A stretch of 56,523 nt of DNA, taken from NCBI RefSeq assembly GCF_002113885.1, contig NW_018408798.1:338282-394804 (forward strand), given 5' to 3'. Positions 24,001-56,523 of the stretch are shown here, piece by piece. Position 1 is the first letter of the stretch. Each line of letters begins with the position of its first letter. The DNA comes from Mizuhopecten yessoensis (lineage: Eukaryota). The position numbers were made by a program.

Positions 24001-27000
24001 ATGTGTGATATATTTAAACATTTTGTGGCTCCTTTTCTTACAGTTTAAACGGATGTTGAATCGAGAATTGAGTCATTTTGCGGAATCTAGCAAGTCAGGA
24101 AACCAAATAGCAGAATATATCTGTAGCACATATCTAGGTAAGTTGTCTTTTCTAGCAGAATACAGTGAACACTTTGTTATAGTGTCACCATCTGTTAAGT
24201 ATAATTATGGCTTATCAAGAGGTTCCACAAAATATTGAGGGATATGTGTAAAGTAAAAAGGAAAAGGAGACAATGAATAACATTAGCAGAAAGTCATGAT
24301 CATGTGGCAGATAAATTGAGATCGGCTTTATATCAAGGTTTTTACTGTATAGTGAAAGTCTGTATATTTACCATATTAAGACCTTCATTTTCTTGATAAG
24401 GGTACCAGGTAGTTGTTTTATCAATTTATATATTGGAAAACTCTCTGTGTGTTACTGTGCAAAGCCACCAAGAAAACCTATATGAAATCTGATTGTGTTT
24501 CATTGCCTACAGCAATGGAGTTACTTCCCTTAGGCTTTAAAGTGACCTGATGTATTTTGGTTACTAGGGCAATGATATAAAAAATATATATGGATCAAAT
24601 GTAAATATATCAACCCTTGAAATAATAAAAATTCTGTTCCTTACTGTTATTCAGCAGCATCAAATGAAGACTGTTTTTATTTATTTATTGAGTAATTTTA
24701 AATGATACACCAGCAAAATTTCCCCAACATGGCTGGAATTTAGAGATTTTTAAATGGAGTTTTGGATGCTCTACAAATTCAGCTGTACATCAAAGACTTA
24801 CAGAATGATGCAAGCACTGATTTACAATTGAGTTTGTCTCCATGTATACTTTTTTTAAACTTCTCTGATTTGAAAATTAGCTAGTTCAAAAATATTGTCT
24901 GCGTCAGGTATTATCACCTGACCTACTCTGTTAGGGTTTGGGCCGTTTTTTATGAAATTCATGTCAGGAGGTTAATCCCTTTCCTGTCTTGCACATTGAT
25001 GCATACCCTCCTCTTCTGTGAAATGAAAATGATGAGGTTTCTATCACTAAAATTAAACAACATTAATCGTTTCATTAAGCACTGTCTGTAAACATTTTAT
25101 AAATTACCGTGTTCATCTAAATTAAAACCCAGTGCTGAAAATTTCAAGATTGAATTCAAATTATTTAGATCATTTTGACGTGGGCATTAAAACAAAATAT
25201 TTTCATCAAAGCTTTTTAAGTCTGATTGCGGAGATATATTAGGCTTTTAAACTAAATTGAAAATTTTCATATACTTATTTTTAATTTGTCTTAATATGGC
25301 ACCCTTATCATCGTAGACATGGATTGTTAGCTTCAAATTATTTTATCACTAGTCAACATTTATACACCAATTCATCATTAAGCTAACCAGGCTTTCAGTG
25401 AAAGTCTGCACTATGTTTTATCTTTATTTTTTTATTCTAATGATGAAGTCATCAGAGGGCAAGGTCAAAAGGTCACTTGGTTACAATAATAAAATAGAGG
25501 AAATCCTTCTGTTATGTATTAAAGCAGAGCTGCACACCAAAAAGGTCTATCAGAAAAAGAAATCAGTATTTGCCTCCAATCGTAAGGATTCATTTAAAAT
25601 CCTTTTCTTTGTTGTATTTTTATTTCAATGTGTTTTTAAAAAATACCATACAGACAATCATTCATGTTTGGTTGTTAATAGGGGATAGAAATCTGGCCAG
25701 AGATATGTTGTTTTACTGTTACAGACAGTTGTATTTGACTCCTGATGAAAAGAATTTGCCATAAATGTAAGAACGGTTTGTGAATGAAATTTGATGGGCA
25801 CAATGAATTGTGGGGGGTTTCACTGAGGCTTCTAATCTGAAAAAAAAGACGCCTACTACTCGGCTGTGGGCATGTTAACAACTAGGGGCATCATTTACAT
25901 CAAATATGGTCAGACAGGATTCTCCGGTACAGTTTTCTCAGCGCCTAAGCAATGGATGACGGCCAACCTGTGATGGATCTCAATGATTTCACTGTCAGCC
26001 ATTAGGCCTATACAACCAAACCTTCCACGATTTTAATTCCATCTGAATTAAACTTCCCAAAATATCTAACTCGCTACTCACGATTTCAGACATATTTCAT
26101 AATACAGAAGAAAAAAATGTTGCCTACGTTTTGGCTATAGGTAATATTGGCGCCCTGGTAGACATGTGTGTATTTGGCTGATTAAGGATAAGCCAGACTC
26201 TCTGTGTGGTAACAGATACTGACTTCACTTCACTCTTCTCTTAATAGTCAAACATACACTTAAGTTCTATCCTTATTTGTTTGCAGAAGTGGTTTGCAAA
26301 GAAGAAAAAAAAAAAACTGTAAATTGTATTGAAAGACAAAATTTTAAAAAACACAAAAACTTTCAATAATTTTGACATTTGTCCGAATATTTATGATAAA
26401 AGAATGACTTTGATTTTGATATAACTAAATGTATCAGTTTAGTTAGTGTTTGTGGGTATCTTTTATATCTAGTTTTATCTTTTAAATTCTACACCTGATT
26501 TAATAAAGTTAAAAAATTGTATGTATGCCCTCCACCCCACCTCCCCACCCACCCCCACCCCCCATCATGAACTCACGAGAAGACACTAGGTGTTATTATC
26601 CCACTTGGTTACATGTTTCTTATCATTATGTAATGTTTATAGTGGATAAGGTTTCATGTTAGGTTAAGTGTGGTCGGTTGGCCTCTTTTTTAATTGTTTA
26701 TCTACAATGATTTATATTTCCGGAGTTTCATACAGAGGCGTGTCACTTCACTTCATATTTGTTATAACTTGGAATGTTCTCATTTGTTATAAGTAGGTTA
26801 TGCATTACATCCACATTACTTTCAACAAAATACTTTACGAAAGAACAAAATACTCTATGAAAGAAAAAGTTCACCCCTGTTATATTTTTGCAGTTTTTGC
26901 CCTAGACGAAATGAGGGTTAATTCATCAAGCTAAGAAAACTATAACATTCGTAGTTGTGATGGTAATGAAAAACATAATGTTGATTTATTAAAGTGAAAC

Positions 27001-54000: not shown

Positions 54001-56523
54001 TTGACTCATTAACTTCAGACATATTGTTTCTAAATTGTTCCGTACCAGAAACATTCACATATATCCTTTTGTTGTCATTATTCTTGTGCCCGAAAATATC
54101 AATTTTATTACCTCTTTTATTGCATACCTGAATTCTTGTGTACAATTAGATGTACACCTTCCAATCACAACCAAGTCAATATATTTGCTTTCATTTTGAA
54201 CATTTTTTTTATTTCATAATTTTTTTATCTATTTTGATAAACACTAAATAATCAAATGTTTTCAGTTCCCAAGGAAGAAAATAGACTTTTTATTTGGCCT
54301 AAAATCAGAAACCCATGATGCCCACAATTATCGGGATTTACGTTAGCCTTCAGGAAGTGGGTTAATTTGTTTGTAATTACTAACACTGTACAAAGAAGAC
54401 AGGAAGTGTATTTCTAGGTAATTTTAAGGGTTGATCGTGAATTAGTGATGAAAGTGTTCCACTCCTTTTGTTTAGTAATATGTAGCTTCCTGTTGGGAGT
54501 GAGGCCAGGTAATTTGAGAAAAGGCTGCTTGGATTAATTGTTACATTTTTACAATGTTTTATTGTTTACAGATAAACAACAGGAGCTTGATGTACCAACA
54601 TTTAAGGTAGAAGATCATAAGGATCAACCAATCAGAGAGGAGAAAGAGGAAACGCCAGAATCTGAACGAAGGCCGATGACAAAAATAACAGGTGTCCGCA
54701 AATTAAAGCACGCCAACAGTTTCACAGGAATCGTACCGAAGTTTGGTGTGGAAACAACACACCAAGAGGACCTCAGTCAAGTAAATGTTTTTTCAACATC
54801 TAGATTCTTTAACTCAAAGAGGCATAACTGAACTTAAAGAGGCATAACCTATACATATAGCTAACAGTCTTTGCTAACAGATAAGCTCTATATTAACAGA
54901 AAATCTGCAAGAGAATAATTGCTTACTTAATTCAAAATGTCAAACAGTTACAGTAGAGGTTCAATATAAATAGTATTCAACACCAATAAATAGCACCCAG
55001 TGATGAAAATTGTTGCCATGTTTTGTCATATTGCATATTTCATTTAGATTCCTGCTATAAAAACCATTGTAAATGATTAAATATGATTATTACTTTGCAG
55101 TGCCTTGAGAACATTAACATATGGGGTGCTGACCTTTTCAAAATATCTCAATTCTCCAACAAACAACCTCTTACCTGTGTAACCTATATGATATTCCAGG
55201 TGAGTTTCAAAAAGTAGTTAGTATTCATATTTCAGTAAAAACAGTAATACACCAGCAATATGAAAACTAGGTTTAAGTATGACGGAATAATCAAATGATC
55301 TTGTTATATTTATATTAGTACATTAAATATCTTACTTTAGAGCGATGGACTGATCTTACTTTAGAGTGATGGGCTGATCTTACTTTAGATCTATGAACTG
55401 ATCTTACTTTAGAGTGATGGACTGATCTTACTTTAGATCTATGGACTGATCTTACTTTAGAGCGATGGACTGATCTAACTTTAGAGTGATGGACTGATCT
55501 TACTTTAGATCTATGGACTGATCTTACTTTAGAGCTATGGACTGATCGTACTTTAGATCTATGGACTGATCTTACATTAAGCAGGTATGTTATCTGACAT
55601 GCCCCAACACTATCTTACCAATAAGTTGTCAGCAGAAGCACAGGTATATTACAACCTGAAACTAAACAGAAAATATACCTGGCGTATCAGGAATTATTGA
55701 ACGATGTGTTAATTACTCTTTTCTGCTCAGACTGTGAAAATAGCATCAACTTCAACCTATTATATATCACGTCGGTCTAACCAATTTTTTTTTTTTTTGC
55801 AGGAACGAAATTTAATGAAAACGTTTCAGATCCCCAACACAACTCTAGTCACATATTTAATGCATCTTGAGGATCATTACCACGCAGACGTACCCTACCA
55901 TAATTCCATGCATGCAGCAGATGTCGTACAATCCACACATGTTCTTCTCTCCTCACAGGCTCTCGAGGTAAGGACATACAACGTTGGTTACCTGTTATTA
56001 TCTGTCACATTGAAGTGACAACAGTGATAACCTGTTATAGTCTGTCACATTGAAGTGACAACAGTGTTTACCTGTTATTATCTGTCACAGTGAAGTGACA
56101 ACAGTGTTTACCTGTTATTATCTGTCACAGTGAAGTGACAACAGTGTTTATATGTTATAGTTAGTCACATTTAAGTGACACTAGTGTTTACCTTTTATAG
56201 TTAGTCACATTGAAGTAACAACGTTAGTTACCTGTTATTATCTGTCACATTGAAGTGACAACAGTGTTTACCTTTTATAGTTAGTCACATTGAAGTAACA
56301 ACAGTGTTTATCTGTTATAGTTAGTCACATTGAAGTGACAACAGTGTTTATCTGTTATAGTTAGTCACATTGAAGTGACAACAGTGTTTACCTGTTATAG
56401 TTAATCACATTGAAGTGACAACAGTGATAACCTGTTATAGTCTGTCACATTGAAGTGACAACAGTGATTACCTGTTATAGTTAGTCACATTGAAGTGACA
56501 ACAGTGTTTACCTGTTATAGTTA

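What the first reader, a model, noticed from the sequence alone, without database searches (positions are those of the whole stretch)
24138..54571. The 30.4-kb intron between UCR2 and the catalytic unit may be an isoform switchboard of phase-1 exons
Seen: the neighbouring introns are only 0.2-0.6 kb, while this one is 30.4 kb. Its unique segments hold three ATG-initiated ORFs ending at phase-1 donors (40343-40394, 46516-46621, 49990-50143) and three open phase 1-1 cassettes (26090-26140, 31041-31070, 53019-53087). All would splice in frame to (D)KQQEL at 54572. Established: PDE4 genes make long, short and super-short forms from alternative first exons joining at UCR1 or UCR2, and UCR2 caps and inhibits the catalytic site. 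Inference: first exons joining after UCR2 would give enzymes with an intact catalytic unit but no UCR1 or UCR2, free of that control and each with its own N-terminal targeting peptide. Caveat: a random donor matches the phase one time in three, so some candidates are probably chance.
Basis: partly seen in the sequence, partly recalled or inferred. Interest (0 to 1): 0.75.

Follow-up and report, generated by a model that had tools for sequence, protein, structure and literature searches.

The report
Repeat-filled PDE4 intron, unproven extra exons
This is a real 30-kb intron at the end of the UCR2 control region of a scallop-like PDE4 gene; other molluscs do start a control-free enzyme form at this exact point, but the six small exons proposed here look no better than chance.

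Summary
The intron 24138-54571 is real: GT..AG, phase 1, between the last UCR2 exon (24044-24137) and the linker exon (54572-54780) of a PDE4 gene. The nearest protein is Argopecten irradians PDE4, 94% identical over that exon. All six proposed exons exist as described.

They are not more than chance gives:
- Outside tandem repeats, the sense strand holds 276 ATG-ORF/GT pairs and 690 open AG..GT cassettes in the required phase. Other phases and the antisense strand give similar numbers.
- The two candidate peptides that could be searched found no protein.
- Tandem repeats make up 32% of the intron. The next upstream intron is also long (14.7 kb) and 71% repeat.

In 10 of 30 mollusc PDE4 proteins a unique N-terminus replaces UCR1 and UCR2 and joins exactly at this position, always through a Tyr. 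No scallop example was found, and my homology search had no power for bivalve N-termini.

Verdict: an ordinary, repeat-inflated intron at a conserved isoform branch point. A "switchboard" is not supported.

The parts
8938..9059 (+). PDE4 linker-region-1 exon. It contains a coding (ACC)n run that gives 10 Thr.
   Evidence: tblastn with P0001 residues 147-191. Acceptor and GTAAGT donor read. TRF period-3 array 8955-8987.
9060..23730 (+). Upstream intron, 14,671 nt, 71.4% tandem repeat.
23731..23843 (+). UCR2 exon, N-terminal half (phase 1 acceptor, phase 0 donor).
   Evidence: Pfam PDE4_UCR positions 51-87 of 119, 55.6 bits. tblastn. Sequence.
24044..24137 (+). UCR2 exon, C-terminal half (FKRMLNREL...STYL plus spare G).
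   Evidence: Pfam PDE4_UCR positions 88-118 of 119, 57.1 bits. It matches residues 11-41 of the PDB chains 3g45_A and 3g4g_A, and residues 169-199 of 4wzi_A.
24138..54571 (+). The intron in question: 30,434 nt, GT..AG, phase 1. It holds 19 tandem arrays totalling 9,840 nt (32.3%). The rest is anonymous unique sequence.
   Evidence: No Rfam family and no tRNA. No Pfam domain above cut-off in 40 of the 57 non-repeat ORFs of at least 60 aa.
33699..35912 (.). Largest-but-one tandem array in the intron (29-nt unit, about 76 copies).
43267..45873 (.). Largest tandem array in the intron (59-nt unit, about 44 copies).
26090..26140 (+). Unsupported.
   Evidence: AG, open frame and GTAATA donor present. 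One of 690 such stretches.
31041..31070 (+). Unsupported.
   Evidence: Good pyrimidine tract, GTGCAG donor. At chance level. The ORFs over it have no Pfam match above cut-off.
53019..53087 (+). Unsupported.
   Evidence: At chance level.
40343..40394 (+). Unsupported. It lies about 250 nt downstream of the CpG-dense spot.
46516..46621 (+). Unsupported and not searched.
49990..50143 (+). It is the only reader candidate that would give the Tyr junction seen in other molluscs. No relative was found.
   Evidence: Peptide search found nothing. No Pfam match. Its N-terminal likeness to the Mytilus form is beaten by an antisense control.
39981..40100 (.). Densest CpG spot outside repeats in the whole window (11 CpG in 120 nt, against a mean of 1.62). 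Meaning unknown.
   Evidence: Sequence. Sense peptide 39991-40113 found nothing. The antisense ORF 39673-40026 gave only an artefact hit.
54572..54780 (+). Linker-region-2 exon, (D)KQQEL...; first exon common to all forms.
   Evidence: 94% identical to P0001. tblastn. Boundaries read.
55101..55199 (+). Exon at the start of the catalytic unit.
55803..55967 (+). Catalytic-domain exon (start of PDEase_I).
   Evidence: Pfam PF00233, 21.7 bits, just below the 24.8 cut-off for this fragment alone.

Best explanation
The interval is a genuine phase-1 intron of a scallop-like PDE4 gene. It sits exactly where the UCR2 regulatory module ends and the linker to the catalytic unit begins.

Its length comes from 19 tandem-repeat arrays (one third of it) plus anonymous sequence. 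That sequence holds no recognisable gene, RNA family or transposon protein.

The position itself matters. In other molluscs it is the point where an alternative first exon, ending in T|GT, joins and makes a PDE4 without UCR1 or UCR2 but with a complete catalytic unit.

By inference, this intron has about an even chance of holding one such promoter and first exon. I could not identify it, and a multi-exon 'switchboard' is unlikely.
For: Shown:
- Exon and intron boundaries and phases.
- Repeat content: 32.3% of this intron, 71.4% of the 14.7-kb upstream intron, 47.3% of the window.
- No Rfam or tRNA hit.
- No Pfam domain above cut-off in 40 of 57 non-repeat ORFs.
- Candidate counts equal to other phases, the antisense strand and shuffles.
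- 10 of 30 mollusc hits join a unique N-terminus at this codon, all through Tyr. Mytilus and Sinanodonta short and long forms are identical after the junction. Two of the forms lie on transcript-sized contigs.

Inferred:
- The Tyr reflects a spare T joined to the AT of the common exon.
- The scallop keeps such an exon.
Against: - No pectinid protein lacking UCR2 appeared among the 30 hits (34 candidates), although the one pectinid cluster (P0001) stands for 25 member sequences. I could not list those members.
- Phase-1 counts on the sense strand are slightly higher than the rest: 276 against 200-230, and 690 against 518-623. Because the counts are nested, I cannot rule out that a real exon contributes to this.
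- The CpG-dense spot at 39981-40100 is unexplained and could mark a promoter.
- My searches for a homologous exon had no power for bivalves, so absence is not shown.
Confidence: 0.7

Rival explanations
1. One reading: several (three or more) of the six stretches are real alternative first exons or cassettes. They would give a set of UCR-free or modified PDE4 forms, each with its own targeting peptide.
For: - All six are mechanically valid.
- The isoform class exists in other molluscs.
- One Lymnaea protein (P0025) has a 14-residue insert exactly between STYLD and KQQEL, as a phase 1-1 cassette would give.
Against: - Hundreds of equally valid stretches exist on both strands.
- There was no similarity to any mollusc N-terminus or to the Lymnaea insert or to the profile.
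- The peptide of candidate 3 matched nothing.
- Candidates 1 and 2 would give Asp at the junction, where all 10 real forms have Tyr.
- In each other mollusc seen here only one such N-terminus is on record, not a set.
Confidence: 0.04
2. Exactly one reader candidate, 49990-50143, is the scallop's first exon for the UCR-free form.
For: - It ends T|GTAAGT, so it would give the Tyr junction seen in all 10 real forms.
- It has A at -3 and G at +4 around its ATG.
- It shares this combination of strong donor, spare T and an ORF of at least 10 aa with only one other donor, at 48596.
Against: - No protein in the 5.8-billion-cluster set contains its peptide.
- It has no Pfam match.
- Its likeness to the start of the Mytilus short form (score 18) is beaten by an antisense control (score 23).
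- With any GT donor there are 144 ORF/T|GT pairs in the intron.
Confidence: 0.08
3. The intron holds no alternative exon at all in this lineage. It is a spacer swollen by satellite-like arrays, perhaps with enhancers, and scallops make only UCR-containing PDE4 forms from this gene.
For: - The only pectinid cluster found carries UCR2.
- Repeats inflate the other 5' introns too.
- No coding or RNA signal was found anywhere in the intron.
- The window is strongly CpG-depleted (o/e 0.34), as a uniformly methylated gene body would be.
Against: - The UCR-free form occurs in Mytilus, Sinanodonta, an unnamed bivalve-like transcript and at least six gastropods, which suggests an old trait.
- There is one sharp CpG-dense spot in the middle of the intron.
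Confidence: 0.4
4. The intron is large because it hosts a nested gene or a mobile element.
For: The longest non-repeat ORF (39673-40026, antisense, 118 aa) starts in the CpG-dense spot.
Against: - That ORF has no Pfam family above cut-off.
- Its only hit among 1.84 billion representatives is one 25%-identical 44-residue match counted seven times in a repetitive protein.
- 40 of 57 ORFs have no domain.
- After masking arrays, the only dispersed repeat inside the intron is one 78-nt pair.
Confidence: 0.03

Closest known systems
Mammalian PDE4 isoform system (long, short, super-short, dead-short)
   Same: Different N-termini come from alternative first exons spliced to common exons, and the classes are defined by which UCR modules remain (passage read in PMC4371794; PMC11941749).
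   Different: - Super-short forms keep a truncated UCR2. The mollusc forms seen here lose all of the Pfam UCR model.
- Dead-short forms lack both UCRs but also have a truncated, inactive catalytic unit (PMC4371794). The mollusc forms keep the whole downstream sequence: 432 of 432 and 445 of 445 residues identical to the long form.
- That mammalian super-short exons join at the FKRMLNREL exon is recalled, not tested.
Aplysia ApPDE4 long, short and supershort forms
   Same: A mollusc PDE4 gene with three cloned isoform classes with different N-termini and localisations (passages read in PMC4580752).
   Different: I could not read the cloning papers, which are not held. Whether the Aplysia supershort form is the Y-KQQEL-joined form is therefore my guess only. 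The text I read says the Aplysia short form has UCR1-UCR2 interaction, which fits the hits that join inside UCR1 (P0002, P0006).
Database mollusc PDE4 proteins without UCRs (e.g. P0014 'cAMP-specific phosphodiesterase 4' of Mytilus galloprovincialis; P0022 'isoform X2' of Patella vulgata)
   Same: They join at the exact homologue of position 54572 and share the linker exon (61% and 55% identity to the window's exon).
   Different: They come from other orders and classes. Their N-termini have no detectable counterpart in this window. No pectinid example was found.
Drosophila dunce
   Same: A PDE4 gene with several promoters and isoform classes sorted by N-terminus and UCR content (passage read in bioRxiv 10.64898/2025.11.29.691281).
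   Different: No sequence comparison was made here. This is context only.

Membership tests
PDE4 (cAMP-specific phosphodiesterase) gene | UCR2 module followed by linker and PDEase_I catalytic domain | tested here: met
   PDE4_UCR at 55.6 and 57.1 bits for the two UCR2 exons. The first PDEase_I residues are in exon 55803-55967, at 21.7 bits, below the cut-off for that fragment alone. Identity to Argopecten PDE4 is 79-94% exon by exon.
PDE4 alternative-first-exon system, as applied to this intron | More phase-compatible ATG-ORF/donor pairs than chance | tested here: not met
   12/9/9 by phase on the sense strand, 8/4/7 on the antisense strand, shuffles 7.75 +/- 4.4. 276 against 200-230 with any GT.
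PDE4 alternative-first-exon system, as applied to this intron | Candidate peptide or exon conserved in related species | tested here: inconclusive
   Nothing was found by tblastn, by profile or by two peptide searches. The leave-one-out control ranked the three bivalve N-termini only 47th to 721st. No mollusc genome collection was available.
PDE4 alternative-first-exon system, as applied to this intron | Transcripts that start in the intron and splice to 54572 | not testable with these tools
Mollusc UCR-free PDE4 form (Tyr-KQQEL junction) | Unique N-terminus joined exactly at the homologue of 54572, downstream sequence shared with the long form | tested here: met
   Met for other molluscs, not for this window: 10 of 30 hits. 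P0014/P0015 are 432/432 identical and P0004/P0006 are 445/445 identical.
Mollusc UCR-free PDE4 form (Tyr-KQQEL junction) | First exon ends with a spare T, so that the junction codon reads Tyr | tested here: inconclusive
   Candidate 49990-50143 meets it. Candidates 40343-40394 and 46516-46621 leave G. 144 ORF/T|GT pairs exist in the intron.
Mammalian super-short PDE4 | Lacks UCR1 and keeps a truncated UCR2 | tested here: not met
   A form joining at 54572 would keep none of Pfam PDE4_UCR, whose last matched position (118 of 119) is at 24136. Definition from PMC4371794.
Mammalian dead-short PDE4 | Lacks both UCRs and has a truncated, inactive catalytic unit | tested here: not met
   The mollusc UCR-free proteins carry the full downstream sequence of the long form. 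Enzyme activity itself was not tested.

The most novel reading that the evidence does not exclude
Molluscs carry an old PDE4 isoform class that mammals lack: a complete catalytic unit with no UCR1 or UCR2.
- It is made from an alternative first exon inside this intron.
- It is marked by an invariant junction Tyr.
- In gastropods it also has a conserved N-terminus that begins MP-x-L-C and contains a K-T-E-A-L-L-L-like hydrophobic stretch.

Such an enzyme would escape PKA activation through UCR1 and capping by UCR2. Its Cys-bearing N-terminus may tether it to membranes.

On this reading the scallop intron holds the orthologous exon, ending T|GT, perhaps served by the CpG-dense spot at 39981-40100.
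Probability: 0.45. Interest if true: 0.45.

Novelty: already known. Interest (0 to 1): 0.25.

Why it matters
UCR1 and UCR2 are the switches through which PKA, ERK and dimerisation control PDE4. UCR2 is also the basis of allosteric PDE4 drugs. A natural, catalytically complete PDE4 without either module would be a constitutive cAMP sink placed by its own N-terminus.

That idea is reasonable. The database proteins show molluscs make such forms at exactly this splice point. They are already in public annotation for Mytilus, Patella, Sinanodonta and others, and probably correspond to the published Aplysia forms.

For this window the practical lesson is a caution. Short phase-compatible ORFs in a long AT-rich intron are abundant and carry no weight without RNA or conservation evidence.

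Tried and rejected
1. tblastn of 15 mollusc N-terminal peptides, including the Lymnaea insert, against the window gave only repeat-driven or chance hits. The best was E 0.01, in a tandem array.

2. A profile HMM of 10 UCR-free N-termini against all frames of the window scored best on the sense strand at E 3.7 and best overall on the antisense control at E 1.4. Leave-one-out showed the profile recovers the three gastropod targets tried (P0017, P0022, P0023) at rank 1, E about 1e-6. It does not recover the three bivalve ones (rank 47-721), so this negative says little.

3. Motif scans gave nothing usable:
- MP-starting ORFs.
- Exons ending [YFW][STD]+T|GT: 4 of 144, all with weak donors or almost no ORF.
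- MG[ILVM], QQ..LL, MPxxC and KTEALLL patterns.
- The MP ORF at 26525 lies in a C-rich low-complexity run.
- A PKEEN match to P0003 at 54267 lies in a 20-codon ORF with no donor.
- A match to P0017 at 25983 is a 17-codon ORF with no phase-1 donor.

4. The N-terminal likeness of candidate 3 to the Mytilus short form was rejected, because an antisense control scores higher.

5. The CRE idea for the CpG spot was rejected: 16 matches to TGACGTCA with up to 1 mismatch, against 16.3 expected.

6. The nested-gene idea for antisense ORF 39673-40026 was rejected.

7. The repeat finder on the whole window returned only tandem arrays. A masked self-blastn replaced it.

8. Literature:
- Searches 'PDE4 + UCR2 + alternative first exon + mollusc', 'PDE4 + Mytilus galloprovincialis' and 'PDE4 + scallop' found no paper on bivalve PDE4 isoforms in the held library. 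I saw search listings only for these.
- Supplements were not consulted.

9. Not done:
Exons were searched one by one.
- 17 of the 57 ORFs were not scanned.
- No eukaryotic genome collection was on hand.

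
Full report
**What the window is**

The window has no N and is AT-rich (GC 0.38), with a CpG observed/expected ratio of 0.34. Its sense strand carries the middle of a PDE4 gene. Translating 54574-54780 and searching the 5.8-billion-cluster protein set gave 30 mollusc PDE4 proteins. 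The best was Argopecten irradians '3',5'-cyclic-AMP phosphodiesterase 4C-like isoform X2' (P0001) at 94% identity. I therefore take the window for a scallop-like bivalve, not human.

tblastn with P0001 and direct reading of the sequence give these exons:

| Exon | Content |
|---|---|
| 8938-9059 | linker region 1 |
| 23731-23843 | UCR2, N-terminal half |
| 24044-24137 | UCR2, C-terminal half |
| 54572-54780 | linker region 2 |
| 55101-55199 | start of the catalytic unit |
| 55803-55967 | start of the catalytic unit |

Searched exon by exon, Pfam puts PDE4_UCR positions 51-87 and 88-118 (of 119) on the two UCR2 exons. The intron in question therefore begins exactly where the UCR model ends. Exon 24044-24137 also matches the UCR2 segment present in the solved PDE4B and PDE4D structures 3g45, 3g4g and 4wzi.

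**Checking the observation**

The intron 24138-54571 is real: GTAAGT...TTTACAG, phase 1. Three corrections are needed.

- Candidate 49990-50143 leaves a T, so it would read Tyr-KQQEL rather than Asp-KQQEL.
- Only the three nearest introns are short (200, 320 and 603 nt). The next upstream intron, 9060-23730, is 14,671 nt. The one before it is longer than 8.9 kb, because no UCR1 exon lies in the window.
- Length here tracks repeats. Tandem arrays make up 32.3% of the 30.4-kb intron (19 arrays, 9,840 nt), 71.4% of the 14.7-kb intron and 47.3% of the window.

**Is it more than chance?**

No.

| Criterion | Sense, phases 1/0/2 | Antisense | Shuffles |
|---|---|---|---|
| ATG-ORF of at least 10 aa with GTAAG or GTGAG donor | 12 / 9 / 9 | 8 / 4 / 7 | 7.75 +/- 4.4 in phase 1 (20 block shuffles) |
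| ATG-ORF with any GT, outside repeats | 276 / 228 / 200 | 210-230 | not run |
| Open symmetric AG..GT cassettes, outside repeats | 690 / 580 / 623 | 518-550 | not run |

The small sense-strand excess in phase 1 cannot be interpreted, because the counts are nested. The set as a whole is what chance provides.

**What else is in the intron**

- Rfam at gathering thresholds found nothing, and ARAGORN found no tRNA.
- Of the 57 stop-free ORFs of at least 60 aa outside repeats, on both strands, I scanned the 40 longest against Pfam. None reached a family cut-off.
- After masking arrays, self-comparison found only one 78-nt dispersed pair inside the intron.
- The single odd feature is 39981-40100, the densest CpG spot outside repeats in the whole window: 11 CpG per 120 nt against a mean of 1.62.
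  - A GTAAGT donor and short ORFs on both strands lie in it.
  - The sense peptide found nothing.
  - The antisense 118-aa ORF gave only a repeat-inflated artefact.
  - A cAMP-response-element reading is at chance.

**Evidence from other molluscs**

Of the 30 hits, 16 carry UCR2 before KQQEL and 14 do not. Among those 14:

- Three are 133-145-aa calls that end in pyrimidine-tract-like text plus Asp. They look like intron read-through, which in this window would also give ...FTD-KQQEL.
- P0005 also has Asp and is ambiguous.
- The other ten (P0003, P0004, P0009, P0010, P0013, P0014, P0017, P0018, P0022, P0023) have a unique N-terminus of 30-87 residues joined exactly before KQQEL, always through Tyr.

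They come from Mytilus, Sinanodonta, Patella, Nucella, Candidula, Elysia, Plakobranchus and two unnamed sources. The Mytilus short form is identical to the long form over all 432 residues after the junction. The Sinanodonta pair, which carries the same locus tag, is identical over all 445. P0003 (484 aa) and P0009 (549 aa) lie on contigs of 2772 and 1910 nt. For a gene with introns like this one, that means spliced RNA.

The gastropod N-termini are clearly related to one another. They share an MP-x-L-C start and a K-T-E-A-L-L-L-like stretch, and the three tried in the leave-one-out control (P0017, P0022, P0023) were each recovered at E of about 1e-6. No hit joins at the start of UCR2 or at FKRMLNREL. 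The shorter UCR2-bearing ones join inside UCR1. One Lymnaea protein has a 14-residue insert exactly at the junction, the only hint of a cassette.

**Does the scallop have such a form, and where?**

I could not tell.

- The only pectinid cluster found carries UCR2. Its 25 members could not be listed, because the database was switched off.
- tblastn, a profile, motif scans and two peptide searches found no counterpart in the window.
- The leave-one-out control shows the profile cannot find even known bivalve N-termini, so this is absence of evidence only.
- Candidate 49990-50143 is one of only two donors in the intron that combine GTAAG or GTGAG, a spare T and an ORF of at least 10 aa. That is the most that can be said for it. 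Its likeness to the Mytilus start is beaten by an antisense control.

**How it most likely works**

Shown:
- This is a phase-1 intron at the UCR2/linker boundary.
- It is inflated by satellite-like arrays.

Shown for other molluscs:
- An alternative first exon in the homologous intron gives a PDE4 with no UCR1 or UCR2 and a full catalytic unit.

Inferred:
- Such a form would lack the PKA site and dimerisation surface of UCR1 and the UCR2 helix that sits over the catalytic domain. This rests on passages in PMC11941749, on PMC4371794, and on my recall of the 3g45 work.
- It would therefore act as an unregulated monomer, placed by its own N-terminus.

I put about an even chance on the scallop intron holding one such exon, and a few per cent on a multi-exon switchboard.

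**Comparison with what is known**

Mammalian classes are long, short, super-short (truncated UCR2) and dead-short (no UCRs, truncated inactive catalytic unit) (PMC4371794, passage read). The mollusc form fits none of them. It keeps no UCR2, but it keeps the whole catalytic unit.

Aplysia has cloned long, short and supershort forms (PMC4580752, passages read). The cloning papers were not held, so the equation with 'supershort' is a guess. Drosophila dunce also has several promoters and five isoform classes (bioRxiv 10.64898/2025.11.29.691281, passage read).

Since UCR-free mollusc forms are already in public annotation, and nothing specific is shown for this window, I rate the finding as already known in kind and of low interest as it stands.

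Noticed in passing
window 23565-23739: A 51-nt unit repeated 3.4 times at 98% identity copies the 3' splice site (TTTACAG) and the first 9 bases of the UCR2 exon that starts at 23731. This puts three decoy acceptors at 23578, 23629 and 23680. Read from the decoys, the frame hits TAA after 8 codons.
   Followed up: partly
window 8955-8987: A coding (ACC)n microsatellite inside the linker-region-1 exon gives a run of 10 Thr. The Argopecten protein has a 7-residue gap in that place.
   Followed up: partly
window 39981-40100: This is the densest CpG cluster outside repeats in a window that is otherwise strongly CpG-depleted (11 per 120 nt against a mean of 1.62; window o/e 0.34). It holds a GTAAGT donor at 40018 and ORFs on both strands. 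No relatives were found.
   Followed up: partly
window 18401-18800 and 19284-19291: The unique part of the 14.7-kb upstream intron has a 400-nt window with CpG o/e 1.05 and, nearby, the window's only perfect TGACGTCA. This could be looked at as a possible promoter for forms that lack UCR1.
   Followed up: no
whole window: 47.3% of the 56.5 kb is tandem repeat, in dozens of unrelated arrays with units of 14-170 nt, e.g. 12862-16955, 19938-22386 and 43267-45873.
   Followed up: partly
proteins P0009, P0010, P0013, P0017, P0018, P0022, P0023 (not in the window): Gastropod UCR-free PDE4 forms share a conserved N-terminus: an MP-x-L-C start, a K-T-E-A-L-L-L-like stretch and a junction Tyr. The three bivalve forms share only the Tyr.
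   Followed up: partly
protein P0025 (Lymnaea stagnalis, not in the window): A 14-residue insert lies exactly between STYLD and KQQEL, as a 42-nt phase 1-1 cassette in the homologous intron would give. It has no counterpart in this window.
   Followed up: partly
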